The notes: generated from the sequence alone by a model not told the origin. Positions 4,941 through 59,100 are shown, counted from the stretch's first letter. The stretch: 64,000 nucleotides of DNA from an uncultured Chloroflexia bacterium (GCA_963797095.1 CAWCNY010000005.1:615425-679424), one strand, 5' to 3'. Translations and numbers: made by a program.

Positions 4941-6310
4941 AGATGGGGTATCGAGTACCGAGTGCCGAGTACCGAGTGGCGACACCGGTCGGGGGCGCAA
5001 CACCGAGCGTGCATAGCTCGCTGTGGATGCGGCTGCATTCGCGCGCGCCTCTGCTTGTCAGCAGCGGGACGGCCTTCCTGGGTACGACATTGACGGGGAT
5101 ACTGGGGTTTGTGTTCTGGGTGATCGCGGCTCGGCTCTATCCGGCATCGAGTGTTGGGCTCGCCAGCGCGGCAATCTCGGCCATGTTCCTGGTTGGGAAC
5201 CTGGGAAGGCTGGGGATGGATTACGCCCTGGCGCTCCACCTGCCACAGCAGGGCAATAAGGAGCGGAGGCATACGACCGCATTGGTGACGTTGGGCCTGG
5301 TGGGCATCGCAAGCGCGGCGTTTGGGCTGCTGTTCATCTTGCAGGGAGCGTTCAGCAGCGAGGTGCGCAACATGCTGGTCGAAAACGGCTGGCTGGCGGT
5401 GGGGTTTGTGCTGGCGTGCGGGGCGTGGGGGCTTGGGCTGGTGCTCGAACAGTTGCTGCTGGTCGGGAGGTATGGGGGACTGGTGCTGGGGAAGAACGCC
5501 GCCTTCTCGGTTGGACGGATCGTGGCTCTGGTGATCCTGCTGCCGCTCGCAGGCGAACGATACGGTATCGTGGCTGCTACGCTGCTGGGCGTGGGAGCGG
5601 GGGTCGCGGTGGTTTGGGCTGCGTTCAGGACCCGTATGGCCTATTCTTTCGGATCGATGCGGGAGAGCGTAGGCGAGGTGGCAAGGCTAGTTGGAAGCTC
5701 AGGCTTCGGGAACTATGTACCTGCGCTGGTGGCAGGACTGCCCGGCTGGCTCCTCCCCGTGACTGTGCTGGACCGAGCGGATAGCGCCAGCGCCGCCCAT
5801 TTCTATACAGCATGGATGATAGTGACATTGGTGAACTCGGCACCGGCTGCGCTGGCTTCTGGGATGCTGGCCGAAGGGTCGCGTGTACGCGAAAGCAGCC
5901 GAGCGCTCATATTGAAGGCCTATAAATACGCAGCAGTGGTGATGGTGCCAGCTGTGGCCGTCCTGTTTGTGGCGGCGGAGCCGATCCTCAGCATATTTGG
6001 GAGCGGCTATTCGGAGAGTGGAGCGGAACTGCTACACTGGATGGCGCTCGGCAGCATACCTTACGCGCTGGTGCAGGTCAACGCAATCAAGCTGCGTTTG
6101 GACGGCAAACTCGGCGCACTCGTTGTAGCGGCTGCTCTGCTCAGCAGCATCTGCCTGGGCGGCAGCTATTTCGCGATACCGGTATTCGGCCTGGAGTCGG
6201 TTGGAATAGCCTGGATGGCAGGCTCGGTATTGGCTGGCATTGTGAGCATTTGGCCTCTCTTGCCTACAATCTTTACACGCGGAGAAAAGACACAATGGCT
6301 GCAAGCGTAA
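4937..6310 (+). CDS. Polysaccharide biosynthesis protein / Wzx-like flippase (MOP superfamily)
   Basis: There are about 12-14 transmembrane helices with a Wzx-like N-terminus. An ATGA overlap with the upstream kinase suggests coupling. Codons 5-15 are encoded by a heptamer tandem repeat (CGAGT[AG]C), so the start could instead be the internal ATG at 5027. Confidence 0.7.
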   Translation: MKMGYRVPSAEYRVATPVGGATPSVHSSLWMRLHSRAPLLVSSGTAFLGTTLTGILGFVFWVIAARLYPASSVGLASAAISAMFLVGNLGRLGMDYALALHLPQQGNKERRHTTALVTLGLVGIASAAFGLLFILQGAFSSEVRNMLVENGWLAVGFVLACGAWGLGLVLEQLLLVGRYGGLVLGKNAAFSVGRIVALVILLPLAGERYGIVAATLLGVGAGVAVVWAAFRTRMAYSFGSMRESVGEVARLVGSSGFGNYVPALVAGLPGWLLPVTVLDRADSASAAHFYTAWMIVTLVNSAPAALASGMLAEGSRVRESSRALILKAYKYAAVVMVPAVAVLFVAAEPILSIFGSGYSESGAELLHWMALGSIPYALVQVNAIKLRLDGKLGALVVAAALLSSICLGGSYFAIPVFGLESVGIAWMAGSVLAGIVSIWPLLPTIFTRGEKTQWLQA

Positions 6311-7071
6311 AGTCTAAATCGAGATTGGCCGGTCGTAGCGACATCTACTTCTGTGCCCTGGGCGGCTTTTCGCTCGGCCTCTACGCGATACTCACCCATT
6401 TTTGGGTGATCGACAGGGGCCCACTGGGTGAAGTGCCCACAGCTATGCTCGGCGCGGGGTTGCTGGTATTTCCAGGGTATAGCCTATGCCGTGCACTGGG
6501 CCTTGACCAGCATGGGACGGCTGTGTTGGGTGGGCTTTCATTCGCGCTGAGTCTGGCATTGCTGGCCGTGGCAGGCGCGGGCGCGTGGCTCATGGTGCAA
6601 GAGCTTGACATTACAGCTATCGAGACAGCGGTGCTGGCTCTCACTATTAGCTTTTGCGCTGTCGCGGCTTTGCGCAGCACAGAGGTGGATGGTGCCCTGA
6701 AGGGCGCGCCTGAGCGATGGACCGCGTTGGGATTGGTGCTTGTTCCGCTCCTCGTTGGGGCGGTGGCATTCAGCCCCGACCTGCCGGTGACCGCCGCAGC
6801 ACGGCACACCGAGTTCTATTTGAATACGCATACCACGCCACTTACCGTGGATATCTACAATGCGGAAGGCAGGACTGTAACTTATACACTGGTAGCAGAC
6901 GACGGCCACAGGCAGGAGAGCATCGGACCTATTGACCCTGGGGTGGATGGGCGTTGGGAAGGCAAATCACCAATCGCACCACCCGTGGGAGGCACATTGC
7001 ACCTGTACCTGTACCGCTATGGAACACACCAACCCTATCGCTTGCTGGTGATAGCGGGCGACAACCCATGA
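6295..7071 (+). CDS. Membrane protein with a C-terminal extracytoplasmic domain (hypothetical)
   Basis: The N-terminal half has about 5 transmembrane helices and the C-terminal 90 aa are soluble. ATG 6295 overlaps the flippase stop codon. The ORF track starts earlier, at 6250. Confidence 0.55.
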   Translation: MAASVKSKSRLAGRSDIYFCALGGFSLGLYAILTHFWVIDRGPLGEVPTAMLGAGLLVFPGYSLCRALGLDQHGTAVLGGLSFALSLALLAVAGAGAWLMVQELDITAIETAVLALTISFCAVAALRSTEVDGALKGAPERWTALGLVLVPLLVGAVAFSPDLPVTAAARHTEFYLNTHTTPLTVDIYNAEGRTVTYTLVADDGHRQESIGPIDPGVDGRWEGKSPIAPPVGGTLHLYLYRYGTHQPYRLLVIAGDNP

Positions 7072-7108
7072 ATGGGGGCCTAAAGGGAGGCAACGAGAGG
7101 TCACTAAG

Positions 7109-8107: not shown

Positions 8108-8128
8108 CCCTGAGAAGGAGGTGATAAG

Positions 8129-8359
8129 GTGACCACAACAGTTACGACAACTACAGTTACTACCCTGGCGCAGGCCGCTGCACTGGGCGTGGTGGCGGTG
8201 ATAATCTTGCTGGCGTTGTTAGCCAACAAGCAATTCATCGCCAACAGCTCGAATGAGCGCCTGCAACGACTGAGCAAAACGCTTAACGTGGCAATAGTGC
8301 CGTTCATGATAGTGTTCGCGGTAATTGCGACCGTCAAGTTTGTTACTGCACTAAGCTAG
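8129..8359 (+). CDS. Small two-transmembrane membrane protein with a Thr/Val repeat N-terminus (hypothetical)
   Basis: A strong RBS (GAAGGAGGTG) lies 6-8 nt upstream of the GTG start. Two hydrophobic helices are present. Confidence 0.45.
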   Translation: MTTTVTTTTVTTLAQAAALGVVAVIILLALLANKQFIANSSNERLQRLSKTLNVAIVPFMIVFAVIATVKFVTALS

Positions 8360-8682
8360 TTATGCATATGGTTCAACATAGCCTGTGATCAAAGCGGTCA
8401 AGACATGCCCTGGCCATGCGAGCGTTTTGGAACGCATGGGAATGTCGCCTGACGGCAGGATAAAATATCGTTTGCACCTTGAGTGTGGGGCGGGGAATGC
8501 CTCGCCCCGTGCAAACGCCAAACCAGCAGATCACCACAGGGGTGTGGTGTTTTGCACAGTTGCAATCTTGCATCTTCTGTGTTAGTATTGTACTGTGCTA
8601 GCTGATGAGGATGGGCTGGCGGAGACTCAGGCGTATAGCTCAAGCAATCAGGCTCGAGTAGCTCGAAAAGGCGAGCAAGAAG

Positions 8683-9318: not shown

Positions 9319-9414
9319 TACGCACACAACACATGCTTGATGAGTAGAAGATAAGCCATCGCGAAGTGTAATGGAATAGATCGTGCTAACCCACTCCTTT
9401 AGATCGGGTCAGTT

Positions 9415-14514: not shown

Positions 14515-15564
14515 ATGACAACAGCTACCCTCACGACGACGTGGCCGAATGCGCGTATCCTGGTGGTTGATGACCAGCCGGTGAACACTCTCCTCCTTGA
14601 GAATATCTTGAACAGGTATGGGTTCAGGAATGTGCATTCGATCACGGATGCGCGGGACGTGGTGCCTTTGGTGCGTGATCTGAAGCCTGACCTGATATTG
14701 CTCGATCTGTGGATGCCGTACCTGGATGGGTTTGAGGTGCTGGAGAATCTGAGCGATGTGATCGACGGGAGCGAGTTCTTGCCTGTGCTGGTGCTGACGG
14801 CGGATGTGAACCCGGATAGTAAGAGGCGCGCCCTATCGAGCGGTGCGAAGGACTTTTTGAACAAGCCGTTCGACAGCCAGGAAGTGATCCTGCGGGTTAC
14901 GAATTTGCTTGAGACGAGGTGGTTGTATTTGCAGTTGCAGGACCGGAACCGCAATCTGGACGAGCAGGTGCGGAAGCGCACTTATGAGCTGGAAGCGGCG
15001 CAGGTTGAGATGCTGGAGAGGCTGGCGTGGGCGGCTGAGTACCGGGACGACGATACGGGCCGCCATATCCAGCGGGTGGGGAATAATGCGACGATTGTGG
15101 CGGAGGCGCTTGGGCTGGGGGAGCAGTTGACCACGCTTATACAACGGGCTGCGCCTCTGCATGATGTGGGGAAGATCGGGGTGCCGGACAGTATTCTTCT
15201 TAAGCCGGGCAGGCTGACGGCTGAGGAGTTTGATGTGATCAAGAGGCATACGAATATCGGTGCTCGGATCCTGGCGGAGGGGCATTCGGCCCTGGTACGG
15301 ACGGCTGCGAGTATTGCTTTTTCGCACCACGAGCGATGGGACGGGTCGGGGTATCCGGCGCGCGTGACGGCGGAGAGGATTCCGATTGAGGGGCGTATTG
15401 TGGCGGTGGTGGATGCTTTTGATGCTCTTACTCATAAACGTCCTTATAAGGAGCCGTGGCCTATTGAGGATGCCCTTGCGGAGATACGCAGGAATACGGG
15501 GACGCAATTCGATCCTATGATTGCTGAGGCGTTTTTGGATTGTCAGAGGTGTCTTGAGTTGTGA
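14515..15564 (+). CDS. Response regulator with REC plus an HD-GYP phosphodiesterase domain (RpfG-like; c-di-GMP hydrolysis)
   Basis: The REC domain is present (ILVVDDQ...LLDLWMP). The HD domain is present ([11 protein letters not shown]). The [11 protein letters not shown] motif is the HD-GYP signature. Confidence 0.9.
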
Positions 15565-15625
15565 CGAGTGACGAGTAGCGAGTAGCGAGTGGCGAGTGGC
15601 GAGTGACGAGTGGTGAGGTAGGACT
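15563..15625. repeat. Heptanucleotide tandem repeat array (GAGTGAC/GAGTAGC/GAGTGGC, ~8 units)
   Basis: The run is cgagtgacgagtgacgagtagcgagtagcgagtggcgagtggcgagtgacgagtgg. It begins directly at the stop codon of the HD-GYP gene. Confidence 0.9.
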
Positions 15626-26882: not shown

Positions 26883-26996
26883 GCTTTTCCCTGTGAATTA
26901 GATAAGTATCTCAGTGGATCTACTTTAGCAAATCGGTGACGGGATCGCCATCGGTCCTCAGGCGTATTTAGCGATGGGGGTGCCGGGTGCCGGGTG

Positions 26997-27021
26997 CCGG
27001 GGAAGCCGACGGCTTCCCCGG
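26997..27021 (-). terminator. Perfect 11-bp-stem hairpin (CCGGGGAAGCC-gac-GGCTTCCCCGG) downstream of MFS copy 3; possible terminator
   Basis: It lies 13 nt after the MFS stop codon on the minus strand. The downstream tract is not U-rich. Confidence 0.35.
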
Positions 27022-36728: not shown

Positions 36729-36767
36729 GGGGGTCTCGTGATACGTGATACGTGGGGTCGTTAGTTG

Positions 36768-36800
36768 CTAGTTCCTGGTTCCTGGTTCCTGGTTGTTGGT
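36768..36800. repeat. Heptanucleotide tandem repeat (GTTCCTG, ~4 units)
   Basis: The run is tagttcctggttcctggttcctggttgttgg, between the asparaginase II start and the O-methyltransferase stop. Confidence 0.85.
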
Positions 36801-37502
36801 AGTCGGAGGTCGGTAGTTGGAGGGATGGGTTGGTTGTTGGGGATTGGGTAGTTTTAGGGTTATTGAGAGGCCGTCGCGCAGGGGGATTATTGTGGTTGTC
36901 AGGCGGGGGTGGTTGGAGACTGCTTTGTTGAAGGCGGCTATGCCCTGGGTGGAGGGGGAGGGGTTCTGGGGGTCCAGGACGCCGCCTGAGCGGATGGCGT
37001 TGTCGGATAGGAGGAGGCCACCAGGGCGGAGACGGCGGAGGCAGCGGTCGAGCATATGGAGGGCGGTGTCGGGTTTGTCGAACTGGGTGAGGATGTCGAG
37101 GAAGATTAGGTCAAAGCTCTCTTCCATGCCGTTCATGAGGACCAGGGCGTCGCCACGGCGGACGGCGCAGGTGCTGGAGAGATCGGCCTGGCGGAAGTAG
37201 GCTTCGGCCCAGGAGGCGCGGGCGTCGTCTTTTTCCAGGGTGACTACGCGGCCTTCGTTTTGGCGGGCGGCGAGGGCTAACCAGAAGGCGGAATAGCCGA
37301 TGGCGGTGCCGACATCGAGGATGTCTTTGGCGCGAGTGGAGAGGGCGAGGGTGTAGAGGAAGTGGCCCTCAATAGGGCCTATGATGGGGACGTTTTCACG
37401 CTCGGCGTGGGCTTCCATGTCGGCCAGGACGCCCTGGCGGGCAGGGATCAATGATAGTAGGTATTCTTCTACTCTGGGGTCTGTTATTCCGAAGTGTTTC
37501 AT
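36768..37502 (-). CDS. Class I SAM-dependent O-methyltransferase (caffeoyl-CoA OMT-like)
   Basis: The SAM-binding motif is present (ILDVGTAIGYSAFWLA) along with downstream family motifs. Confidence 0.85.
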   Translation of the reverse strand: MKHFGITDPRVEEYLLSLIPARQGVLADMEAHAERENVPIIGPIEGHFLYTLALSTRAKDILDVGTAIGYSAFWLALAARQNEGRVVTLEKDDARASWAEAYFRQADLSSTCAVRRGDALVLMNGMEESFDLIFLDILTQFDKPDTALHMLDRCLRRLRPGGLLLSDNAIRSGGVLDPQNPSPSTQGIAAFNKAVSNHPRLTTTIIPLRDGLSITLKLPNPQQPTHPSNYRPPTTNNQEPGTRN

Positions 37503-39581: not shown

Positions 39582-39624
39582 GGGTAGTGGGTAATAGGAT
39601 CTTTGTTAAGGGTCTGTGCTTTTT

Positions 39625-42265: not shown

Positions 42266-42360
42266 TCTTCTAACTCCGAGGGTGAGGGAAACGTGACTAT
42301 TTCGTACTGCCTACTGCCTACTGCGTATTGCTTACTTCGTACTACTTAACTCGTCACCTG

Positions 42361-43575
42361 TCACGTTTCATTTATCATTTCTTGGGCCTTCTGCCTTGCC
42401 CAGTCGTCGGCCCACTTGATGTCTTGTATGTCGGGATGGGGAATGGCGGTTCCAACATGATTTTCGAGCACTTTCTCTATTATACCAGGAATTTGCCCGA
42501 AGCGGATTTCTTCGCGTAGGAAGGAGGCGACGGCTATTTCGTCGGCGGCAGCCATTACGGTGGGGTAGGTGCCACCTTTGCGCCCGGCCTCGAAGGCGAG
42601 GTCGAGGCAAGGGAAGCGGGGGCGGTCGACCGCTTCGAAGTGGAGCGCGCCGAGCGCGGGCCAATCGGCGCGGGGGTGGGCGGGATTGGGGTAGCGCTGG
42701 GGGTGGGTGAGGGCATACTGGATGGGGACGCGCATATCAGGGATGCCTAGCTGGGCTTTGGCTGAGCCGTCTACGAAGCGCACCATCGAGTGGATAATGC
42801 TTTCGGGGTGGACTATCACCTCTATGTCGTCGAAGGGGACGCCGAAGAGCCAGTGGGCTTCGATCACTTCCAGGCCCTTGTTCATGAGGGTGGCGGAGTC
42901 GATGGTGACTTTAGCGCCCATGTTCCAGGTGGGGTGATTGAGGGCCTGGCGGGGTGTGGCGTTGTAGGTGCTCTGGAGATCCCACTTGCGGAAGGGGCCG
43001 CCCGATGCGGTGAGGACGACTTTCTCGATGCAGTCCCAGGCACCGGAGACGCCACGAGTGTCTTCGCGGCGGGGGGCTTCGGGCTCGCCAACGAGGCACT
43101 GCCAGATGGCGCTGTGCTCGCTGTCGATCGGGCGGATGCGGATGCCTTTCTCGCGGGCGAGGGAGGTGACGATGGTGCCAGCCATCACGAGGGCTTCTTT
43201 GTTGGCGAGGGCGATCTGCTTGCCAGCGCCGAGGGCGGCGAGAGTGGGGGCGAAGCCCGCGTGGCCGGTGGTGGCGACCACCACCATGTCTACTTCGGGG
43301 TGGGTAGCGAGTTCGACCATGCCGGATTCGCCTGAGAGGATGCGAGAGTCGTTGCGGGCGGCTTGTTCTTCGGCGAGGGCGAGGAGGAGGGGAGGTTGTG
43401 GGAGGGAGGCGGCTTGCTTCAGGAGGGCGCCGCGGTCGCGGCCCGCGCCGAGGGCGACCACCTGGAAATGGTCCGGGAGGCGGCTGACTACGTCGAGGGT
43501 CTGGGTGCCGATGGAGCCGGTTGAGCCGAGGATGGCAATACGGATTTTGGATTTTGGATTTTGGATTTTGGACAT
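42361..43575 (-). CDS. dxr: 1-deoxy-D-xylulose 5-phosphate reductoisomerase
   Basis: The N-terminus reads RIAILGSTGSIGTQTLDV and Dxr core motifs are present. Codons 2-10 are encoded by a GGATTTT heptamer tandem repeat, translated as SKIQNPKSK. Confidence 0.9.
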   Translation of the reverse strand: MSKIQNPKSKIRIAILGSTGSIGTQTLDVVSRLPDHFQVVALGAGRDRGALLKQAASLPQPPLLLALAEEQAARNDSRILSGESGMVELATHPEVDMVVVATTGHAGFAPTLAALGAGKQIALANKEALVMAGTIVTSLAREKGIRIRPIDSEHSAIWQCLVGEPEAPRREDTRGVSGAWDCIEKVVLTASGGPFRKWDLQSTYNATPRQALNHPTWNMGAKVTIDSATLMNKGLEVIEAHWLFGVPFDDIEVIVHPESIIHSMVRFVDGSAKAQLGIPDMRVPIQYALTHPQRYPNPAHPRADWPALGALHFEAVDRPRFPCLDLAFEAGRKGGTYPTVMAAADEIAVASFLREEIRFGQIPGIIEKVLENHVGTAIPHPDIQDIKWADDWARQKAQEMINET

Positions 43576-43626
43576 TCGAAGTGTAATTCAGGGAACCACA
43601 GAGGCACTGAGGCACTGAGGTTCTTT
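43535..43626. repeat. Heptanucleotide tandem repeat (GGATTTT, 4-5 units, inside the dxr 5' end) plus an adjacent 8-mer repeat (GAGGCACT, ~2.5 units)
   Basis: The heptamer run is ggattttggattttggattttggattttgga. The 8-mer run is cagaggcactgaggcactgagg. Confidence 0.9.
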
Positions 43627-44532: not shown

Positions 44533-45360
44533 CTACTTCACGGTAGCGGGATCGAAGGAGACAGAGGCGGCCTGGGCAGAGATGGCGTCGTTCCCGTTGT
44601 ACTCATGTATCTCTTCGGGAAGGATGCCGCCAAACTTGCGGTTGCGCCTGCCGTACTCGGCTATGGCCTCTCGGAAGGAGTCTTTGTCGAAATCGGGCCA
44701 GCAGGTGGGGGTTGAGTAGAACTCGGAATAGGAGGCCTGCCAGACGAGGAAATTGCTGAGACGCATCTCGCCGGCTGTGCGGATGATGAGGTCGGGGTCG
44801 GGGATCTCGCGGGTGTAGAGGTGGCTGGAAATGGCCTCTTCGGTGATGTCTTCAGGCTTGACGCCCTCGGCCACGAGATCGCGGACGGCGCGCACGATGT
44901 CATCGCGACCGCCATAGTTGAAGCAGACGCTGAGGATCAGGCGGTTGTTGTGCCTGGTGGTTTCGAGCGCGTAGGCTATGGCCTTCTGCAAGGAGGGGGG
45001 CACGTTTTCCATGTGGCCCAGGTGGCGGATCTGGACGCCCTCGCGGGACAATTCGGGAGTCTCTTTGTGGATCACCTCGGCCAGGATGCGCATGAGGCCC
45101 TGCACCTCACCGCTCGGCCTGTTCCAGTTTTCGGTGGAGAAGGCGTAGACGGTCAGGTATTTGACATCGTTCTCGACGCAGGCATGGACTATGCGGCGAA
45201 TGTTCTCGGTGCCTGCGCGGTGCCCGGCCAGGCGTGGGAGACCGCGCCTGCGCGCCCATCTGCCGTTGCCGTCCATAATGATGGCGACGTGCTGCGGCCG
45301 AGGATCCAGATGATTTTGGATTTTGGATTTTGGATTTTGGATTTTGGAGATATCGGACAT
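44533..45360 (-). CDS. uppS: Undecaprenyl-diphosphate synthase (isoprenyl transferase)
   Basis: The HVAIIMDGNGRWA and ENWNRP motifs are present. The N-terminal codons are encoded by a GGATTTT heptamer repeat, translated as SKIQNPKSKIQN. Confidence 0.9.
   Translation of the reverse strand: MSDISKIQNPKSKIQNHLDPRPQHVAIIMDGNGRWARRRGLPRLAGHRAGTENIRRIVHACVENDVKYLTVYAFSTENWNRPSGEVQGLMRILAEVIHKETPELSREGVQIRHLGHMENVPPSLQKAIAYALETTRHNNRLILSVCFNYGGRDDIVRAVRDLVAEGVKPEDITEEAISSHLYTREIPDPDLIIRTAGEMRLSNFLVWQASYSEFYSTPTCWPDFDKDSFREAIAEYGRRNRKFGGILPEEIHEYNGNDAISAQAASVSFDPATVK
45305..45352. repeat. Heptanucleotide tandem repeat (GGATTTT, ~5 units) at the uppS 5' end
   Basis: The run is gattttggattttggattttggattttggattttggag. 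Confidence 0.9.
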
Positions 45361-45525
45361 GGGTCGTTCTACTTTTGCTCCAAGTTTAGCCTGCCAGAGG
45401 ATTATATGCGCGTGTCTCTACTGAGATCAACGACTTGAGTGCTTAAAGATTACTCTCTCTACAATTTACGCGGGAGTTGCCAAAATGGGCGCGTCCGGGA
45501 AGACCCAAACCGAAATCCGAAATCG

Positions 45526-46110: not shown

Positions 46111-47624
<1,514 letters not shown>

Positions 47625-47735
47625 GTTTGTTGTTCCTCCTGGGATAATAAAATGCCGGTAGTCAAGTGTCGGTAGTCAGTTGCGGAAGATCCGCTACCGA
47701 CTACTGGCAACTGACTACCGACAACTTGTGTTTTT

Positions 47736-51132: not shown

Positions 51133-53340
51133 TTAGCGGGCGCTTTGGCCTGAGGTGGTGCCTCTGTAGATTGTGTAGCGGGGTTGTTGTTCGGCTATTT
51201 TGTAGAGGGATTGGAGGGTTTGGGTGGTGGCGGGGGAGAGGCGGGCGAAGCCACGCTCGTGGACTACTATGAGGGAGACAAGGGTGGAGCGTTCGAGGAA
51301 GTCGGCCTGGGGGATGGGGCTTCGCATTACGGCATAGGGGTCGTCGCCGTGGTCGCCGCGCAGAGAGGAGTCGATGAGGTCGCCCCAATCGCGGGTGTCG
51401 AGGCTGAGGCCGAGGTAGATCATGTGGCCGTAGCTGTCGATCAGGTAGCCGGTGGAGGGGGAATAGCTGGGTGGACGGGCTGAGAGTATGTTGAACTGCT
51501 CGTCGGAGGAGAGGACGGACGAGCCGGGAGGGACGGCGTCGTTGACGTAGCGGGCAACAATCTCGAAGATGTGGTCTTCGCAGTGGGGGCAGTCGCGGGT
51601 GGTCATGCCGGTCCATTGGAGAACGATGAGGGGTGAACCTACCAGGAGGAGAACCACGAGAGGGGTGAAGGTTGTTAGTAGGGAGGTGCGTCGGGCAGAA
51701 GCGGGAGGCCGAGGGTGAGCAGAGGTGCGGGACGTGAGGCGGCGGAGGAGTCCGGGGGTGAGGCTCAGGCCGGCAGCGAGGATGCAGAAGGGGGCGGCTA
51801 GCTGGATGTAGTAGTGCTGGTAGAAGGAGCGGCTGTAGGTGAAGAGGATGAGGCTGAAGAAGGCCCAGAAGATGGCGACGCGCCAGGGGCCGAGGGAGCC
51901 GCGCAGGTTGGCCCACACCCAACAAGAGAGGACTATGAAGCCGAGAGCGGCCAGGAGCGGGGTGAGGGCGTTGGCGAGGCTGGAGGTTAGGTCGCCTATG
52001 CGGGCGGGGGTATCGACCTCGCCGTCGCTGGGGCGGAGCATCTGGAAGAAGAAGACCATGCGGATGAACTGGGAGGGGGCGATGATGAGGAAGGGGCCGA
52101 CGACGACCAGGAAGGAGGCTAGAGCGCCAAGGATGAGGGAGATGAACGAATTCTGGATTTTGGATTCTGGATCTTGGATCTTGGATTTGTTGGTGCCGAG
52201 TTCTGAGTTTGAAGTGGGGAGTGGGGGATCTGGGTCGTCTTGGGTAGGGGTTAGGGTGGAGGGTTGGATGGGGGTGGTGCGGCGGGTTTCTAGCCAGAGC
52301 CAGATCATGTCGGCTAGGATGGCGAGGAGGCAGGCCAGGCCAGCTATTTTGGTGAGGGCACTCAGGGCGGCCAGGACGCCGACGAGGAAGAATCCGAGGC
52401 GCGGGGTGCGGAGTTTGGAGTGCGGAGTGCGGAGTGCGGAGTGCGGAGTGTTTATTCTGTTGTTTGTTAGGGTGGGGCGGACCAAGATGTAGAGGAGAAC
52501 GGCGGCGCATGATAAGAGGACCAGGGGGCCTTCCAGCATTATCTTGCGGTTGATCTCTACTACTCTGCCGTCGATGGCCCAGAGGCCGCCTGCCAAGGCG
52601 CCGCCCCAGAGGCCTGCAAGGAGATAGCCTATGCCGAATAGTAGGGCCAGGGTTATCAGGCTGTAGGCGACGGAGAGGTAGCGCGCGATCATGAAGGAGG
52701 TGGGACTTCCCCATTCGGTGAAGTGGTAGGCCATGGCGGGAGCGTAGGCAATGGCGGCGATGGGAGGGTGGGCGAAGAAGTAGTCGCGATAGGGGAGGAT
52801 GCCTTGCAGGAAAAGCTGGGAAGTGCCTGCATAGACGCCTTCATCGTCGTAGGGATAGCGGCTGATGCCGTAGTTCTGGGGCCATAGCTCGACCATGCGG
52901 CCAATGCCACCAATGAGGATCAGCACCAGGAGCAGGGCAAGCGGAATCCAGCGTGATAGGCGTGGGCGTGTGGCTGGTTGGAGTGGGTGTGGAGGTTGGT
53001 CGTCAGGGGTGGGGAGTTTGTTGGAGATGAAGCGGGTCGAGAGGAGGGCAGCGCCGAGGAGCCATGCGGCCCAGGCCAGCCAGGGGCGGGCGTCGTAGTG
53101 AGCTTCGAGGGGGGAGAGGATGCCGAGTTGGAGGGGGGCGTCCCAGGCGACGCTGCCACCGAGCCAGCCGGAGATGCCTTCAATAAGGAGGGACAGGAGG
53201 CGCAAGTTGATGGCGACGCCTAGAGCGCCATAGGCAATCAGGATCGCTGAGATGTAGGGGACGAAGCGGGCAAAGTAGCCTGTTAGGGGCAGGCTGTACT
53301 TCTGCGATTGCATGGAGGGATTGTCGCAGAAGCACAGCAA
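51133..53340 (-). CDS. Glycosyltransferase family 39 / ArnT-PMT-like membrane glycosyltransferase
   Basis: A multi-transmembrane N-terminus with a PMT_2-like region is present (YPYDDEGVYA...). Two in-frame heptamer-repeat-derived inserts are present (HSALRTPHSKLRTP and KIQDPESKIQN). Confidence 0.75.
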   Translation of the reverse strand: MLCFCDNPSMQSQKYSLPLTGYFARFVPYISAILIAYGALGVAINLRLLSLLIEGISGWLGGSVAWDAPLQLGILSPLEAHYDARPWLAWAAWLLGAALLSTRFISNKLPTPDDQPPHPLQPATRPRLSRWIPLALLLVLILIGGIGRMVELWPQNYGISRYPYDDEGVYAGTSQLFLQGILPYRDYFFAHPPIAAIAYAPAMAYHFTEWGSPTSFMIARYLSVAYSLITLALLFGIGYLLAGLWGGALAGGLWAIDGRVVEINRKIMLEGPLVLLSCAAVLLYILVRPTLTNNRINTPHSALRTPHSKLRTPRLGFFLVGVLAALSALTKIAGLACLLAILADMIWLWLETRRTTPIQPSTLTPTQDDPDPPLPTSNSELGTNKSKIQDPESKIQNSFISLILGALASFLVVVGPFLIIAPSQFIRMVFFFQMLRPSDGEVDTPARIGDLTSSLANALTPLLAALGFIVLSCWVWANLRGSLGPWRVAIFWAFFSLILFTYSRSFYQHYYIQLAAPFCILAAGLSLTPGLLRRLTSRTSAHPRPPASARRTSLLTTFTPLVVLLLVGSPLIVLQWTGMTTRDCPHCEDHIFEIVARYVNDAVPPGSSVLSSDEQFNILSARPPSYSPSTGYLIDSYGHMIYLGLSLDTRDWGDLIDSSLRGDHGDDPYAVMRSPIPQADFLERSTLVSLIVVHERGFARLSPATTQTLQSLYKIAEQQPRYTIYRGTTSGQSAR
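52140..52192. repeat. Heptanucleotide repeat (GGATTTT/GGATCTT variants, ~5 units) inside the GT39 ORF
   Basis: The run is ttctggattttggattctggatcttggatcttggatttg. Confidence 0.85.
52395..52450. repeat. Heptanucleotide repeat (GCGGAGT, ~5 units) inside the GT39 ORF
   Basis: The run is gcggagtttggagtgcggagtgcggagtgcggagtgcggagtg, encoding HSALRTPHSKLRTP on the minus strand. Confidence 0.85.
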
Positions 53341-55477: not shown

Positions 55478-55548
55478 TAGTTGGGTATAGTTCCTGGTTC
55501 CTGGTTCCTGGTTCTGACTACCGGCTACCGGCTACCGGCTACCTGCTT
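55478..55548. repeat. Compound heptamer array (GTTCCTG x4, then GGCTACC x3) abutting the left end of the IS element
   Basis: The run is agttcctggttcctggttcctggttctgactaccggctaccggctaccggctacctgc. Confidence 0.9.
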
Positions 55549-55554: not shown

Positions 55555-57490
55555 CTGTAGTTTGAGATCCACTGATCATTCGCGCAAATGAGAGAGGAAA
55601 TTCGAAGAGGCTGATGGCAATGATGGCAATGTGGTAGCATCCAATCTATGCTACCAGATAGTAACTCTACCACCCTGACCAATGAACAGGTCAACAGCGT
55701 CCCCTTCTTGCTTGGGTTGATCGAGGACCTGGGCATTGGCTCTCTGATTGACGCCCATGTGCGTCCTCACGGCCATTGGCAAGGGGCCAGCGTGGGCACG
55801 CTCGTCACTATCTGGCTGGCCCACATCCTCAGCGAACGCTCCCATCGTCTCGTTGCCGTTCGTGACTGGGCTGCTGCCCGTGCCCATACCATCGAAACCT
55901 TGCTGGGCATAGAATTGCGCCCTACTGATTGCACCGACGACCGCCTGGCCAATGTCCTCTCCATGCTTGGCTCTCCCTCCACCCAATCTATCCTTGATTC
56001 TGCCCTCACCCATCGCTGGATACATGGATCCGCCTCTACCGCTTGCCCTCTGACACCATCCGCCTGGACAGCACCTCGGTCTCCGTCTACCACGACTTTG
56101 ACCCCGCTGAACAGGGTATCTTGCTGCAACGAGGCCACGGCAAAGCCACGGCAAAGCCAAAGCAAGGATAATCGCCCCGACCTCGCTCAGTTCAGAGTGA
56201 TGCTTGCCTCGCCGCCTCCCTCGACCCGCTTGGGCTGCCCCTGTGCTGCCAGACAGTGAGTGGCAACCGCGCCGATGACCCCTTGTACATTCCCGCCTAG
56301 GAAGCGGCAGTTGGGGCTGTAGGCACTCGCGATGTGCTGGTGGTAGGTGATTGTAAGATGGCTGCACTCGAAACGCGAGGATACATGGCCGCGCACAACA
56401 GCCGTTACTTGTGTAGGCTCTACGCTCCATGGGCTGCCCGTGAAATTGCAGGGTGGGTGGAGAGCGCCCTCGAACCTGAGCGTCGAGCCAATTGGGAGTG
56501 GGAGTGGGAGTGGGAATCGCTGGAAGTGGTAGATACGCGCACCGGGGAAATCCGTCTGGTGAGCGAGGTAGATACCCACCAACGAGCGCAGAGTTGGGTC
56601 GATCCATCGAGCGGGCGAAGAGTAGAGTGGAGCGAACGAGTGCTGTTGGTGCGCAATCAAGGGTACTGGCTCAAGGAACGAGCCAATCGGGAGCGTGCCC
56701 TGGACAAACTGGTGGCAGAGTTGGGCAAGTTATGCCTTGTACCAGGTGCGGGGCGAGGCCGACGCCGGTACGGCAGCAAAATGGAGTTGGAAGCAGAAGT
56801 TGTCAAACGGATAGCGGCCGCGGGATTCGAGGGAGCGGGAGTGGTAAGGGCACCTGTGATAGAGGTAGAGACAGAGACAGAGACAGAGACGGTAGCCGGG
56901 CGGCCCTACTGGGTGGTTGAGCAGGTTATGGTGGAGGGAACAGCATGGGAGAGGTATGTGGATCGACTAGGGTGGCAAGTCTGTTTGACAAGCACAACAG
57001 CCGAGCAGTTGAGTACAAGGCAGGTGTTAGAGACATATTATGGGCAGGTAGTGCACGAGCGGGATTTTGCCCGGCTCAAGAGCCGAGCGGTGCATATCCG
57101 ACCGGTGTATGTGCGAGATGAGCAACGGATCGCAGGGTTGGTGTGGCTGCTGATGGTGGCATTGCGGGTGCTGGTGATGACCGAGCAGCGCCTACGAGCA
57201 GAGTTGGCCAGGCGGGGAGAAAGCTTGGGAGGCTTGAATCCGGCAAGCCGCACACAGCGAACGGTGCGACCGACCACAGAACGTGTCCTGGATGCATTTG
57301 CGGAGATAACGCTGACGCGCTGGCAGGGAAAAGGTGGGCGATGTGGAGGACATGTCACATCTCTGAACGGGACGCAGCAGCACATCCTCGCCCTGTTGGG
57401 GTTGCCACCGGACCTGTATGATCGACTGGCTCATTCTCCTCCTTATTTTGCTGTGGGTTTGTGCGAATGATAAGTGGATCTCAGCTGTAG
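55555..57490 (+). mobile_element. IS1634-family (IS4 superfamily) insertion sequence with a frameshifted transposase and ~30-bp imperfect terminal inverted repeats
   Basis: The left end reads CTGTAGTTTGAGATCCACTGATCATTCGCGCAA. The reverse complement of the right end reads CTACAGCTGAGATCCACTTATCATTCGCACAA. Internal ORFs encode a DUF4277-like N-terminus and a DDE C-terminal region. Confidence 0.75.
55648..57470 (+). pseudogene. IS1634-family DDE transposase, split into at least two frames (55648-56259 and 56334-57470)
   Basis: The N-terminal motif VPFLLGLIEDLGIGSLID...W.GASVGTLVTIWLAHILS is recognisable. The C-terminal block is YYGQVVHERDFARLKS...IAGLVWLLMVALRV. The reading frame is lost around 56000-56330. 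Confidence 0.7.
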
Positions 57491-57554
57491 TCCCTTGACA
57501 ATAGGGGCTGATTGGGGTACTAAATATGGGAGTACAATGAAATAGGAAGTAAAG

Positions 57555-57858
57555 GCAACGACGGAGAGAGTAGGTTGGGCGGTCGCGCCCAGGGAGGGTA
57601 TGGCCGGAGACTGTGAGCCAGCCCCGTTGAACCCGACTGAAGTTCACTCCTGAGCCGGCAGGTGAAAGGCTTCTCTGCTGCGTAGCGCGTACTGCTTACT
57701 GCGTAAGGCGGTTGGGAAGTTTGGTAGTTTGCCCCGGTTGCTCGCCGTTATTGAGTTTTGAGCGATCCACCTTCGCTAGGTGAGGGGTTGGATCGAAATC
57801 AGGGTGGTACCACGTGGCCGCGCTTCGTCCCTGGCGAGAGCGCGGTTTTTGTTTGGAC
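57555..57858 (+). promoter_or_regulatory. T-box riboswitch leader (Phe-specific) with an intrinsic terminator, upstream of pheS
   Basis: Stem I has an AGAGA/AGTA motif at ~57563. The specifier loop contains UUC followed by A at 57643-57646. The conserved T-box sequence AATCAGGGTGGTACCACG lies at 57797-57814. A GC-rich stem at 57817-57846 is followed by TTTTTGTTT. Confidence 0.75.
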
Positions 57859-57861: not shown

Positions 57862-57950
57862 AGGTGGCGAGTGGCGAGTGGCGAGTGGCGAGCGGCGAGC
57901 GGCGAGCGACGAGTGACGAGTGACCAGGAACTAGGGACTAGGGACTAGGA
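57862..57950. repeat. Compound heptamer array (GGCGAGT/GGCGAGC ~8 units, then ACTAGGG/AACTAGG ~3 units), between the T-box terminator and the pheS start
   Basis: The run is ggcgagtggcgagtggcgagtggcgagcggcgagcggcgagcgacgagtgacgagtgaccaggaactagggactagggactaggaact. Confidence 0.9.
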
Positions 57951-57988
57951 ACTTTCGTCCTTCGTCCATCGTCGTCAGGGGAGGTGTT

Positions 57989-59065
57989 ATGAGTAGTTTG
58001 CAGGAACAGATTGAGGAAGCCCGGCGGGAGGCGCTTGCTTCGCTTGGTGGCGTGTCGGATAGCGCGGGGCTGGAGGAATGGAACCGCGAATGGCTTGGGA
58101 AGAAGGGGCGGCTGACGGCGCTGTTCAGGGGCGTTGGCGGGCTGCCCGCAGAGGAGCGCGCAGGTGCAGGGCAAGCTATCAATGCCGCCAAGGCCGACCT
58201 TGAGGCGGCTTATCAGGGTGCGCTGGAGACGATCAGCGCGGGGGAGCGCGAGAAGCGGTTGGAGGCCGAGGCGGTAGATATCACGTTGCCGGGACGGCCT
58301 GTGCATGCGGGGCATTTGCATGTGATCACGCAGACTGCGCGCGACATATTGAAGGCTTTTCGAGATATGGGGTTCCAGGTGTACGAGGGGCCGGATATCG
58401 AGCTTGAGGAGTATAACTTCCAGTTGTTGAATATACCGCCGGAGCACCCGGCGCGCTCGATGCAGGATACTTTCTATGTTGACGACCGGTTGCTGGGCAT
58501 GAGGCCACCGGGGGCAAGTATGGACGAATTGCCGCCGGCGGTGTTGAGGACGCATACTTCGCCCAATCAAATACGGATGATGCGCAAGATCGCGCCACCG
58601 CTCAGGTTGATCGTGCCGGGGAAGTGCTATCGCTCGGAGGCGACGGATGCCACGCACGAGGCGTACTTCACGCAGGTGGAGGGGCTAGCGGTCGATAGGA
58701 ACATCACGCTGGCCGATTTGAAGGGAACGTTGGCGGCGTTCGCCCGCGCCATGTTCGGGTCGGACAGGAAGGTGCGGTTCAGGTGCGACTATTTCCCTTA
58801 TGTGGAGCCCGGGGTGGATTTGGCGATCAATTGCATCAATTGCGATGGGTCGGGGTGCAGGTCGTGCAAGTACACGGGCTGGCTGGAGATCATGGGGGCG
58901 GGGATGGTGCACCCGCAAGTGCTTCTGAACGGGGGGATCGACCCGGACGAGTACAGTGGGTTCGCGTTCGGCATGGGGCCGGAGAGGATCTCTATGCTGA
59001 GGCATGGGATTGATGACATCCGGTTGTTCTATTCGAATGATTTGAGGTTTCTGCAGCAATTCTGA
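57989..59065 (+). CDS. pheS: Phenylalanine--tRNA ligase alpha subunit
   Basis: Class II aaRS motifs 1-3 are present (e.g. FRCDYFPYVEPG, GFAFGMGPERI). Confidence 0.95.
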   Translation: MSSLQEQIEEARREALASLGGVSDSAGLEEWNREWLGKKGRLTALFRGVGGLPAEERAGAGQAINAAKADLEAAYQGALETISAGEREKRLEAEAVDITLPGRPVHAGHLHVITQTARDILKAFRDMGFQVYEGPDIELEEYNFQLLNIPPEHPARSMQDTFYVDDRLLGMRPPGASMDELPPAVLRTHTSPNQIRMMRKIAPPLRLIVPGKCYRSEATDATHEAYFTQVEGLAVDRNITLADLKGTLAAFARAMFGSDRKVRFRCDYFPYVEPGVDLAINCINCDGSGCRSCKYTGWLEIMGAGMVHPQVLLNGGIDPDEYSGFAFGMGPERISMLRHGIDDIRLFYSNDLRFLQQF

Positions 59066-59069
59066 TTGG

Positions 59070-59100
59070 AATGGCGAGTGACGAGTGACGAGTGACGAAT
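59070..59100. repeat. Heptanucleotide repeat (GACGAGT, ~3-4 units) in the pheS-pheT spacer
   Basis: The run is ggcgagtgacgagtgacgagtgacgaatg. Confidence 0.85.

What the first reader, a model, noticed from the sequence alone, without database searches (positions are those of the whole stretch)
4950..59100. Pervasive heptanucleotide tandem-repeat arrays (STRR-like), drawn from a small set of unit sequences
At least 14 loci carry 3-9 tandem copies of 7-bp units, and the same units recur at several places.

- GTTCCTG: 36768, 46990, 55480.
- GGTAGTC: 47030, 47655.
- GGATTTT: 43535, 45305, 52140.
- GAGTGAC / GGCGAGT: 4955, 15563, 57862, 59070.
- GGCTACC: 55515.
- GCGGAGT: 52395.
- GCCGGGT: 26985.

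Several loci are compound arrays in which one unit switches to another, or to its reverse complement. Most are intergenic, often directly at a stop codon or just upstream of a start. The units share a period but not a sequence, which is reminiscent of the STRR heptamer repeats of heterocystous cyanobacteria. This genome does not look cyanobacterial, and the function of such a repertoire here would be unknown.
Basis: seen in the sequence. Interest (0 to 1): 0.7.

Follow-up and report, generated by a model that had tools for sequence, protein, structure and literature searches.

The report
Heptamer repeat arrays between Chloroflexota genes
This stretch of an uncultured Chloroflexota genome is peppered with short runs of 7-base repeats, the same kind of fast-changing "STRR-like" microsatellite long known from cyanobacteria and Xanthomonas, sitting mainly between genes of operons; it is a real but already known kind of feature in a new lineage.

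Summary
The window has 12 exact arrays of at least 3 copies with period 7, against 0 in shuffles and 0-2 for every other period from 4 to 15. Units recur between loci (P = 0.0004).

The genome is Chloroflexota, not cyanobacterial. Seven relatives (Dxr 76-82% or PheS 79% identical) carry period-7 arrays at 0.2-0.7 per kb, mostly in the same spacers of the rpsB-tsf-pyrH-frr-uppS-cdsA-dxr-rseP cluster. 152 more distant loci have 0.008 per kb.

About a third of the arrays lie inside genes, as N- or C-terminal tails or membrane-protein loops. Many abut a stop codon. Opposite-oriented arrays pair into stem-loops: z = -6.0 and -2.7 in the window, and down to -11.5 in relatives.

Near-identical strains differ in copy number and in unit sequence, which is homogenised along each array. 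An in-gene array differs by exactly three units (21 nt).

In the window, 12 of 13 orientable arrays have their G+T-rich strand on the + strand regardless of gene direction. This points to a replication-level origin.

Best reading: these are slippage-driven STRR-type microsatellites, mostly tolerated passengers. A subset supplies the stems of terminator or attenuator hairpins. This is a new member of a known kind, of moderate interest.

The parts
4948..4982 (+). (GAGTACC/GAGTGCC) x ~5. It starts 8 nt after the stop of a thymidylate-kinase-like gene (4248-4940) and lies upstream of ORF 5027-6310.
15561..15617 (+). (GTGACGA/GTAGCGA/GTGGCGA) x 8.1. The first unit supplies the TGA stop (15562-15564) of the response-regulator/HD gene. 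The array lies 65 nt upstream of an acyltransferase ORF. The RNA is unstructured (z = +1.4).
26978..27001 (-). (GGCACCC in gene sense) x 3.4, in the spacer between two MFS genes, directly 3' of an 11-bp G+C-rich hairpin.
36737..36754 (-). (CACGTAT in sense) x 2.6, in the methyltransferase-asparaginase II spacer, 8 nt before the asparaginase start. Relatives have other heptamer arrays in the same spacer.
36771..36820 (-). (CAGGAAC in sense) x 3.4, preceded by degenerate GACTACC-like units. It encodes the C-terminal tail of the methyltransferase and ends at its TAG stop.
42288..42369 (-). dxr-rseP spacer element. A 10-nt inverted repeat, GAAACGTGAC (which contains the dxr TGA stop) and GTCACGTTTC, flanks (CAGTAGG/CAGTACG) x ~6 at 42303-42348. 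It is orthologous to the (TGAAACG)n/(TCACGTT)n hairpins of relatives.
43542..43572 (-). (AAAATCC in sense) x 4.4, forming codons 2-11 of dxr (MSKIQNPKSKI). The same array sits in the same place in relatives L161 and L166.
43597..43620 (-). Period-8 array (CCTCAGTG in sense) x 3 in the cdsA-dxr spacer. It accompanies the heptamer arrays but is not a heptamer.
45312..45348 (-). (AAAATCC in sense) x 5.3, forming codons 5-16 of uppS (SKIQNPKSKIQN).
45510..45524 (-). (GATTTCG in sense) x 2.1, starting 2 nt after the frr stop. It is orthologous to the longer (ATTTTGG), (ATTGCGG) and (AATTTTG) arrays of relatives, and is imperfectly complementary to the uppS array.
46996..47026 (-). (CAGGAAC in sense) x 4.3 in the tsf-pyrH spacer, downstream of the hairpin and upstream of a conserved pyrH promoter-like motif.
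47024..47095 (-). Inverted pair. (GGTAGTC in sense) x 2.3, 11 nt after the tsf stop, and (GACTACC) x 5.3 form an 18-bp stem-loop (window 47045-47095; z = -2.7 for the 150-nt stretch folded).
47649..47727 (-). rpsB-tsf spacer. Degenerate GGTAGTC/GACTACC units form a long hairpin (z = -6.0 for the 132-nt stretch folded). A U-rich run (UUUUAUUAU) begins at its 3' base, just before the tsf ribosome-binding site, which is attenuator-like.
52150..52188 (-). Decayed (AAAATCC/AAGATCC in sense) x 5.6, 84% matches, in frame inside a 735-aa membrane protein with a weak PMT (GT-C-like) match (KSKIQDPESKIQN loop).
52401..52450 (-). (ACTCCGC in sense) x 7.1, 88% matches, in frame in the same membrane protein (TPHSALRTPHSKLRTP loop).
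55490..55547 (-). Compound array. In the sense of the downstream PspC-domain gene it reads (GGTAGCC) x 4.3 followed by (AACCAGG) x 3.6, lying 105-163 nt upstream of that gene (55184-55384).
57864..57973 (+). pheS leader. (GTGGCGA/GCGGCGA/GTGACGA) x 8.4, then CAGGAAC, then (ACTAGGG) x ~3, then (TTCGTCC) x 2.9. It lies between the T-box terminator and the pheS ribosome-binding site. The closest relative has about 25 nt here.
59075..59098 (+). (CGAGTGA) x 3.4, starting 9 nt after the pheS stop in a 102-nt pheS-pheT spacer. This spacer is 13-18 nt in L001, L004 and L005.
60835..60865 (+). Weak (CGAAGGA) x 4.4, 83% matches, inside a variable loop of pheT. It may be a decayed in-gene array.

Best explanation
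These are STRR-type heptanucleotide microsatellites of an uncultured Chloroflexota clade.

Shown:
- Arrays of 2-9 copies of 7-nt units occupy the transcribed spacers, leaders and tolerant protein tails or loops of housekeeping operons.
- They change copy number and are homogenised unit by unit between closely related strains.
- Inside genes the only length change seen is three units (21 nt, 7 aa).
- The same unit families recur at many loci and in several genomes.
- In the window their G+T-rich strand lies almost always on the G-rich DNA strand, whatever the gene direction.

Inferred:
- They arise and resize by slipped-strand mispairing during replication.
- They spread and are homogenised by recombination or gene conversion between arrays, in either orientation.
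- They persist wherever length changes are harmless.
- Most are passengers.
- Where two opposite arrays lie together just behind a stop codon, they form long, register-tolerant stem-loops. These occupy the place of the terminator or attenuator hairpins that relatives build from ordinary sequence, and probably act as such in the mRNA.
For: - Period-7 excess and unit reuse.
- The trait is clade-limited. Density is 0.2-0.7 arrays per kb in the window and in L002, L003 and L161-L167. It is 0-0.05 per kb in L001, L004-L006 and L081, and 0.008 per kb in 2.1 Mb of more distant loci.
- Arrays occupy the same spacers of the syntenic rpsB...rseP cluster in six genomes, with related but different units.
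- Strain pair L161/L166 (93.6% nt identity): (CGCAATC)5.4 versus (GCAATAC)3.0 between identical flanks. (AGTTGTC)4 versus (GGTTGTC)2.6. One extra unit in both arms of the dxr-rseP hairpin. The in-gene array is unchanged.
- Within one 90%-identity Dxr cluster, MPQSKIQNPKSKINIALLG versus MPQSKINIALLG, a difference of exactly 3 units.
- The arrays are dispensable. The pheS leader is about 135 nt in the window and about 25 nt in L001. The pheS-pheT spacer is 102 nt versus 13-18 nt. L167 has no dxr-rseP spacer at all.
- 12 of 13 orientable arrays have the G+T-rich strand on the window's + strand, in both + and - genes. That strand carries an extreme G excess at fourfold sites.
- Hairpins: window z = -6.0 (followed by UUUUAUUAU) and -2.7. 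Relatives z = -4.2 to -11.5, with perfect stems of 25-32 bp.
- Every genome has a hairpin after tsf, and three of four have one after rpsB. These are array-built in the window and L164, and ordinary in L163 and L165. Conserved promoter-like motifs follow them.
- Literature: heptamers are the commonest long SSR class, and polymerase slippage was proposed as the cause (PMC4679880, PMC4692102). STRR hairpins between hupS and hupL may affect transcript stability (PMC2670836).
Against: - Slippage alone does not explain why the period is 7, why a few unit families are reused across genomes, or why three L164 loci carry identical 28-nt arms with the same copy number.
- Co-variation of the two arms could mean real selection on pairing rather than passive gene conversion. 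Examples: L164 ATTTTGG/CCAAAAT versus L163 AATTTTG/CAAAATT; a variant unit mirrored in both arms of L164 7868-7960; one unit gained in both arms in L166; and the arrays flanking frr, AATCCGC/GCGGATT in L162 versus ATTCCGC/GCGGAAT in L167.
- No read-level or same-species data exist for the window itself. The genome and metagenome scans found nothing closer than 85% and 76% PheS identity.
- The terminator role is not measured, and only one window hairpin has a U-tract.
Confidence: 0.6

Rival explanations
1. The arrays are primarily selected RNA elements. Paired arrays would be terminators, attenuators, 3'-end stabilisers or RNase III-type processing stems. Single arrays would be unstructured spacers that keep start sites open. 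Slippage would merely tune them.
For: - Arrays sit at orthologous spacers in six genomes.
- About 15 of 53 begin at a stop codon.
- Hairpins are very stable.
- Compensatory unit and copy-number changes occur in both arms.
- Complementary arrays flanking frr co-vary between L162 and L167.
- Single arrays fold less than shuffles (z = +1.1 to +1.6).
- STRR hairpins have been proposed to stabilise transcripts (PMC2670836).
Against: - Close relatives do without them (L001, L004 and L005 spacers of 13-25 nt; L167 has no dxr-rseP spacer).
- Units and copy numbers differ between strains about 6% apart.
- In the window, array orientation follows the DNA strand and not transcription. Arrays are G/T-rich in the mRNA of + genes and A/C-rich in the mRNA of - genes.
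- Only 2 of 12 array-bearing stretches folded in the window are clearly structured.
Confidence: 0.22
2. They are copies of small non-autonomous mobile elements (MITE-like or REP-like hairpin modules). A transposase acting in trans would disperse them, and the heptamer periodicity would be a property of their terminal inverted repeats.
For: - L164 has three loci with identical 28-nt inverted arms (TTCTGAAACGTGAAACGTGAAACGTGATG and its complement), the same 3.4 copies and partly similar interiors. One interior carries another palindromic element.
- In the window, a 26-nt block is identical at 36769 and 55488, and the order GACTACC-array then CAGGAAC-array then TA is conserved at three loci.
Against: - No target-site duplications or a defined element boundary were seen.
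- Most arrays are single and unpaired, with different lengths at each locus.
- Orthologous arrays diverge in place rather than appearing and disappearing as units.
- No IS200/IS605- or RAYT-type gene is in the window. The only transposase-like ORF, 56334-57470, is a weak DDE match (E = 0.004).
Confidence: 0.1
3. They are contingency loci. Gain or loss of a 7-nt unit would switch genes on and off (phase variation) through frameshifts or promoter-spacing changes.
For: - The unit length is not a multiple of three.
- Arrays lie at the 5' ends of dxr and uppS and in leaders.
- Copy number does vary between strains.
- Heptamer promoter repeats do drive phase variation in Haemophilus (PMC8262952, PMC12721329).
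Against: - The genes involved are essential housekeeping genes (dxr, uppS, pheST, rpsB-tsf), not surface or restriction genes.
- The only in-gene length change seen preserves the frame (3 units).
- The in-gene array is identical in the strain pair whose non-coding arrays changed.
- In-gene arrays in the membrane protein are decayed (84-88% matches).
Confidence: 0.03
4. They are arrays of binding sites for a sequence- or register-specific protein. Examples would be a cold-shock-type single-strand binder that covers about 7 nt per monomer, or a DNA-binding regulator or nucleoid protein.
For: - The repertoire of units is limited and shared across genomes (8 of 30 unit classes occur in two or more genomes).
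- CspB binds heptamer direct repeats, one protein per heptamer (as reviewed in PMC4679880).
Against: - At least 10 unrelated unit families occur in 64 kb.
- Units change between strains.
- Both orientations occur.
- A 7-bp spacing does not keep sites on one face of duplex DNA.
- Nothing in the window links a binding protein to the arrays.
Confidence: 0.05
5. They are assembly or sequencing artefacts.
For: None specific. L167 comes from an assembly with split genes.
Against: - Arrays are 18-61 bp, well within single reads.
- Arrays lie at orthologous positions in independent assemblies from NCBI, ENA and JGI.
- In-gene arrays keep reading frames open across a 735-aa ORF.
Confidence: 0.01

Closest known systems
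STRR (short tandemly repeated repetitive) heptamer sequences of heterocystous cyanobacteria
   Same: - 7-nt units amplified in tandem.
- Several unit families per genome, dispersed over many mostly intergenic loci.
- They can form hairpins between cistrons such as hupS-hupL.
- Function is unproven; transcript stability or translational coupling has been suggested (PMC2670836, PMC4692102).
   Different: - A different phylum and different unit sequences.
- Here a sizeable fraction lies in frame inside genes.
- Array orientation follows the DNA strand.
- Strain-level turnover and arm co-variation are documented here.
Heptameric GGGAATC repeats of Xanthomonas and GGGGA(T/C)T repeats of Nostoc (Rehm et al. 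2015, PMC4692102)
   Same: - About 180 intergenic heptamer arrays per genome, typically about 4 units.
[quoted passage not shown]
- Some occur as inverted pairs able to form stem-loops.
- Polymerase slippage is invoked.
   Different: Those genomes are dominated by one G-rich unit able to form G-quadruplexes. Here there are at least 10 unit families and no G-tracts of three or more.
TAACTGA direct repeats of marine Beggiatoaceae (MacGregor 2015, PMC4679880)
   Same: Heptamer direct repeats of 2-6 copies, lying in 5' leaders directly upstream of start codons and sometimes inside ORFs. A translational role has been suggested.
   Different: That system has a single unit and a consistent orientation relative to the downstream gene. 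Here there are many units, and orientation is not tied to transcription.
Long SSRs with 5-11-nt units in prokaryotes (Mrazek et al. 2007, as summarised in PMC4679880 and PMC4692102), and the (GATAGRA)n satellites of Chloroflexus aurantiacus (PMC6749651)
   Same: A statistically over-long SSR class in which heptamers dominate. It occurs in free-living bacteria, is scattered through the genome, and is species-specific. It is already reported once in the phylum Chloroflexota.
   Different: Those surveys did not describe clade-wide orthologous positions, hairpin pairing, or strain-level concerted evolution. The units here are unrelated to GATAGRA.
REP/BIME-type intergenic palindromic elements of proteobacteria
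   Same: Dispersed hairpin-forming elements just behind stop codons inside operons. From my own knowledge, REPs can stabilise upstream mRNA and attenuate transcription.
   Different: REP stems are not built from tandem repeats, and RAYT transposases disperse them. No such gene or fixed element length is seen here.

Membership tests
Long SSRs with 5-11-nt units, heptamer-dominated (Mrazek 2007 class) | Tandem repeats much longer than composition predicts, with period 7 as the dominant class | tested here: met
   12 exact arrays of at least 3 copies at period 7, against 0.0 in shuffles. Other periods from 4 to 15 give 0-2. The same spectrum is seen in eight related loci.
Long SSRs with 5-11-nt units, heptamer-dominated (Mrazek 2007 class) | Units whose length is not a multiple of three lie mainly outside coding sequence | tested here: met
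   42 intergenic versus 11 in CDS, in sequence that is 79-92% coding. The in-CDS arrays are confined to tails and loops.
Long SSRs with 5-11-nt units, heptamer-dominated (Mrazek 2007 class) | Copy-number polymorphism between related strains (slippage) | tested here: met
   L161 versus L166 at three loci. L162 versus L167. A 21-nt in-frame difference within one 90%-identity Dxr cluster. Not testable for the window's own species, because no conspecific sequence was found.
Cyanobacterial STRR | Heptanucleotide units amplified in tandem, with several families, dispersed at many loci | tested here: met
   At least 10 unit families at about 20 loci in 64 kb.
Cyanobacterial STRR | Hairpin-forming arrangement in intercistronic spacers | tested here: met
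   Window 47045-47095 and 47649-47727. Relatives z = -4.2 to -11.5.
Cyanobacterial STRR | Occurrence in heterocystous cyanobacteria, with the canonical STRR unit sequences | tested here: not met
   The organism is Chloroflexota. Units such as GTTCCTG, GGATTTT and GTGGCGA are not the STRR units as I recall them. So this works like STRR but is not a member of that family.
Phase-variable contingency loci | SSR placed so that unit gain or loss switches a surface, virulence or restriction gene on and off | tested here: not met
   The genes involved are dxr, uppS, pheS/T, rpsB-tsf and the like. The only in-gene variant preserves the frame.
REP/BIME or MITE-like mobile hairpin elements | Dispersed copies with a conserved palindromic core and defined ends | tested here: inconclusive
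   Three identical-armed copies in L164 and a 26-nt identical block in the window. But lengths are variable and no clear ends or target duplications were found.
REP/BIME or MITE-like mobile hairpin elements | A cognate transposase (RAYT, IS200/IS605 or other) in the genome | not testable with these tools
   Only 64 kb of this genome is available. The one transposase-like ORF in the window is a weak DDE match.
Intrinsic terminators / attenuators | A stable stem-loop followed by a U-tract at the end of a transcription unit | tested here: inconclusive
   The rpsB-tsf hairpin (z = -6.0) runs into UUUUAUUAU. The tsf-pyrH hairpin has no U-tract. Positions lie between a stop codon and conserved promoter-like motifs. 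There are no transcript data.

The most novel reading that the evidence does not exclude
The arrays may be more than slippage debris. They could form a clade-wide, self-homogenising set of complementary heptamer arrays that build register-tolerant stems of up to 32 bp behind stop codons, and even across a whole cistron (frr in L162 and L167). The two arms would be kept matched in unit sequence and in copy number. That would amount to an evolvable RNA termination or processing code (for example RNase III-type or terminator stems), or to a DNA hairpin/cruciform maintained by templated repair.
Probability: 0.15. Interest if true: 0.7.

Novelty: new member of a known kind. Interest (0 to 1): 0.4.

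Why it matters
The function and origin of heptamer STRR-type repeats have been open since about 1990.

This clade offers a useful comparative system. The same operon spacers can be followed through about ten genomes at graded divergence. They show in-place unit turnover, homogenisation along arrays, matched changes in both hairpin arms, and frame-preserving changes inside essential genes.

The strand rule seen in the window, with the G+T-rich strand on the G-rich DNA strand regardless of transcription, is a concrete clue. It suggests that the generating process is replication-linked.

Practically, the arrays matter for annotation, because they fall at starts of dxr and uppS, in spurious N-terminal extensions, and in a T-box leader that scores below threshold. 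They could also serve as strain markers in metagenomes.

Tried and rejected
- Looking up the window's own contig through its PheS and Dxr proteins failed; neither is on record. I could therefore not extend beyond 64 kb or obtain deposited gene calls.
- The genome contigs and metagenome-contig scans with PheS found no conspecific sequence. The best matches were 85% and 76%. Polymorphism had to be tested in relatives, reached through Dxr homologues and their cluster members.
- Rfam at gathering threshold found nothing in the window. None of the arrays matches a known RNA family.
- No tRNA or tmRNA genes were found.
- My first codon-usage gene caller was misled by the extreme strand bias and dropped pheS. 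I redid it with strand-specific models.
- I considered that A/C-rich arrays act generally as unstructured translation leaders. I rejected this as a general rule, because arrays of + strand genes are G/T-rich in the mRNA.
- I considered a replication origin near gyrB as a source of iteron-like repeats. The GC skew does not change sign anywhere in the window.
- I considered G-quadruplex formation, as in Xanthomonas. No unit has a run of three or more G.
- A literature search for heptamer repeats in Chloroflexota returned only the Chloroflexus aurantiacus satellite survey.

Full report

Yes. Tandem Repeats Finder reports 23 rows with period 7, and several of them appear again as period-14 or period-21 rows.

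Counting only exact arrays of at least three copies, period 7 gives 12 arrays (330 bp). Twenty dinucleotide-preserving shuffles give a mean of 0.0. Periods 4, 5, 6 and 8-15 give 0-2 arrays each.

A mismatch-tolerant scan lists 15 arrays with their units.

Units are reused. There are three same-class pairs among the 15 strict arrays, against 0.11 expected from composition (P = 0.0004). The 26-nt block TAGTTCCTGGTTCCTGGTTCCTGGTT is identical at 36769 and 55488. The order GACTACC-type array, then CAGGAAC array, then TA recurs at three loci.

**2. Whose genome, and what surrounds the arrays?**

The window has 59% G+C and no tRNA genes.

Its PheS and Dxr match 'Chloroflexia bacterium' MAGs best, at 85% and 82% identity.

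Pfam identifies the following genes:
- On the minus strand, the classical cluster rpsB (47736-48737), tsf, pyrH, frr, uppS, cdsA, dxr and rseP (40970-42265).
- Further along the minus strand, a methyltransferase and asparaginase II.
- On the plus strand, pheS-pheT and two-component genes.

The arrays fill these positions:
- the rpsB-tsf, tsf-pyrH, frr-uppS, dxr-rseP, methyltransferase-asparaginase and pheS-pheT spacers;
- the pheS leader;
- the region upstream of a PspC-domain gene;
- a spacer between two MFS genes.

The pheS leader contains a T-box (RF00230, 57549-57835, 71.4 bits, E = 1.6e-15, below the gathering score of 93). The arrays at 57864-57973 lie between its terminator and the pheS ribosome-binding site.

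**3. Not all arrays are intergenic.**

- (AAAATCC)n in gene sense forms codons 2-11 of dxr (MSKIQNPKSKI...) and codons 5-16 of uppS.
- Two decayed arrays (84% and 88% matches) lie in frame in loops of a 735-aa membrane protein with a weak PMT (GT-C-like) match.
- The CAGGAAC array at 36771 encodes the C-terminal tail of the methyltransferase, up to its stop codon.
- The first unit of the 15561 array supplies the TGA stop of the response-regulator gene. The dxr stop lies inside the GAAACGTGAC motif.

Across the window and five syntenic relatives, 42 arrays are intergenic and 11 are in CDS, in sequence that is 79-92% coding. About 15 of the 53 begin within a few nt of a stop codon.

**4. A clade-wide trait.**

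Loci around pheS and dxr from relatives show the same period-7 spectrum.
- L002 and L003 (PheS 79%) and L161-L167 (Dxr 76-82%, or members of the Dxr clusters of L161 and L162) have 4-11 arrays per 6-21 kb.
- L001, L004, L005, L006 and L081 have 0-1.
- 152 more distant loci have 16 arrays in 2.12 Mb.

Eight of 30 unit classes occur in two or more genomes. They include AAACGTG, AAAATCC, AACCACT, ACTCGCC, ACGAGTG and AATCCGC.

In the syntenic rpsB...rseP cluster the arrays sit in the same spacers in genome after genome, with related but not identical units.
- After the frr stop: GATTTCG (window), ATTGCGG (L162), AATTTTG (L163), ATTTTGG (L164).
- After the dxr stop: a GTGAAACGTG...CACGTTTC element whose arms have about one unit in the window and up to 3.4 units in L164.
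- The N-terminal SKIQNPKSKI of Dxr is shared with P0002 (82% identical). Other relatives have SAIRNPQSAI from a related unit.

**5. The arrays are dispensable and fast-evolving.**

The closest relative, L001, has about 25 nt between the T-box terminator and the pheS start, against about 135 nt in the window. L001, L004 and L005 have pheS-pheT spacers of 13-18 nt, against 102 nt in the window. L167 has no dxr-rseP spacer at all, whereas L162 (about 89% identical) carries a (GTAGTGC)2.7...(TACGCAC)7.6 hairpin there.

The strain pair L161/L166 is 93.6% identical over 3.8 kb and differs as follows:
- (CGCAATC)5.4 versus (GCAATAC)3.0 between identical flanks;
- (AGTTGTC)4 versus (GGTTGTC)2.6;
- one extra 7-nt unit in each arm of the dxr-rseP hairpin;
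- the in-gene (AATCCAA)4.6 array is unchanged.

Within one 90%-identity Dxr cluster, two members read MPQSKIQNPKSKINIALLG and one reads MPQSKINIALLG. The difference is exactly three units.

It comes with homogenisation of point changes along an array (concerted evolution) and a frame constraint inside genes.

**6. Hairpins.**

In the window, only two of twelve array-bearing stretches fold much better than shuffles.
- The rpsB-tsf spacer scores z = -6.0. Its stem is made of GGTAGTC/GACTACC-type units and it runs into UUUUAUUAU.
- The tsf-pyrH spacer scores z = -2.7, with an 18-bp stem from (GGTAGTC)2.3 and (GACTACC)5.3.
- Most single-orientation arrays fold no better, or worse, than shuffles (z = +0.3 to +1.6).

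In relatives, inverted pairs are the rule. They give perfect stems of 25-32 bp with z = -4.2 to -11.5. One of these has a variant unit mirrored at the symmetric position of the other arm (L164 7868-7960).

Every genome has a hairpin after tsf, and three of four have one after rpsB. These hairpins are built from arrays in the window and L164, and from ordinary sequence in L163 and L165. Conserved promoter-like motifs for pyrH and uppS lie downstream of them.

Unit changes are compensated between arms: L164 ATTTTGG/CCAAAAT versus L163 AATTTTG/CAAAATT. The arrays flanking frr, about 600 nt apart, read AATCCGC/GCGGATT in L162 and ATTCCGC/GCGGAAT in L167.

Three L164 loci share identical 28-nt arms.

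**7. Orientation.**

In the window, 12 of 13 arrays that can be oriented have their G+T-rich strand on the + strand. This holds for all four in + strand genes and eight of nine in - strand genes. Orientation therefore follows the DNA strand and not transcription.

The same strand carries an extraordinary G excess at fourfold-degenerate sites. Skew in gene sense is +0.42 in + genes and -0.76 in - genes, against -0.13 to -0.24 (and near 0 in two small minus-strand samples) in relatives.

In relatives, arrays are only mildly A/C-rich in gene sense (30 versus 18 arrays).

**8. What it most likely is.**

The data fit slippage-driven heptanucleotide microsatellites of the STRR/long-SSR kind.
- They arise and resize during replication.
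- They are homogenised and copied between loci, probably by recombination or gene conversion in either orientation.
- They are retained wherever length change is harmless: spacers, leaders and protein tails or loops.
- Only changes in multiples of three units are tolerated inside genes.

That they are largely passengers is supported by their absence from close relatives and by their strain-level turnover.

A subset, the inverted pairs behind stop codons, occupies the place of terminator or attenuator hairpins and probably functions as such. That step is inferred, not shown.

Three things remain unexplained by slippage alone: why the period is seven, why a limited unit repertoire persists across genomes, and whether arm matching reflects selection for pairing or templated copying.

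**9. Comparison with what is known.**

- Xanthomonas GGGAATC repeats lie between the same genes in related species, with length and sequence variation and occasional inverted pairs (PMC4692102).
- Cyanobacterial STRRs form hairpins between hupS and hupL and are suspected to affect transcript stability (PMC2670836).
- Beggiatoaceae TAACTGA repeats sit in leaders (PMC4679880).
- Chloroflexus aurantiacus has 22 (GATAGRA)n-derived satellites (PMC6749651).

The present case behaves like these but is not a member of the cyanobacterial STRR family, because the phylum and the units differ. It does not meet the definition of contingency loci. Membership of a REP/MITE-type mobile family is inconclusive.

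**10. Verdict.**

- The STRR-like interpretation is supported.
- It is a new member of a known kind.
- Interest is moderate (0.4). The phenomenon itself would not surprise a specialist. The clade does offer an unusually clean comparative series, with orthologous spacers, strain pairs, coding and non-coding arrays, and a strand rule, for attacking the long-standing question of what heptamer repeats are and do.

Noticed in passing
window 1-64000 (all genes): The window shows extreme strand compositional asymmetry. At fourfold-degenerate sites the GC skew in gene sense is +0.42 for + strand genes and -0.76 for - strand genes. The + strand is therefore strongly G-rich whatever the gene direction. 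Bulk skew is +0.13 to +0.29 with no sign change, except one 4-kb bin (8001-12000) at +0.04. Relatives show only -0.13 to -0.24 in the orthologous cluster (near 0 in two small minus-strand samples). About 60% of the genes, including rpsB-tsf and gyrB, lie on the C-rich coding side.
   Followed up: partly
window 18849-19033, 28354-28530, 31959-32082, 33236-33440, 37541-37812: A second, unrelated family of dispersed intergenic repeats. These are G+C-rich clusters of short palindromes, such as CCCCTCTCCCC..GGGGAGAGGGG and CCCCCTGTCAGGGGA, about 120-270 bp long, with 5-8 copies in the window. Similar sequences follow pheS in L081 and L082.
   Followed up: no
window 57549-57835: A T-box leader lies upstream of pheS and scores below Rfam's gathering threshold (71.4 versus 93 bits, E = 1.6e-15). 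It carries an insertion of about 50 nt in a variable stem that contains heptamer-like GCGTACT/GCTTACT units. In L002 and L003 the same variable region holds a hairpin made of inverted GGAATTT-type arrays.
   Followed up: partly
window 48570-48641: A perfect 15-nt repeat x 4.8 encodes (APVET)n in an N-terminal extension of about 85 aa on ribosomal protein S2. The S2 domain starts at residue 87.
   Followed up: no
L164 12830-12970; L162 about 2640-2760: Another palindromic element, ctgtcatcctgagcgtagcgaaggatctc and its complement. In L164 it is inserted in the loop of a heptamer hairpin, and in L162 it lies in the cdsA-dxr spacer. It looks like a widespread MITE-like repeat.
   Followed up: no
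L162 83-106 and 682-715; L167 about 7335-7365 and 7943-7965: Complementary heptamer arrays flank the whole frr gene, about 600 nt apart. Their unit changes in a compensatory way between two genomes about 89% identical: AATCCGC/GCGGATT versus ATTCCGC/GCGGAAT.
   Followed up: partly
window 19130-19418 and 19460-19748: Two tandem copies of a 289-nt segment, 80% identical, lie inside the ORF 19123-19929 (minus strand). This is an internal duplication in a protein I did not identify.
   Followed up: no
window 25270-25402 and 39612-39744: A 133-nt sequence is repeated 14 kb apart at 77% identity, in both cases just upstream of a minus-strand gene.
   Followed up: no
window 56334-57470: An ORF with a weak DDE transposase match (PF01609, E = 0.004) lies between the PspC-domain gene region and the pheS T-box.
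   Followed up: no
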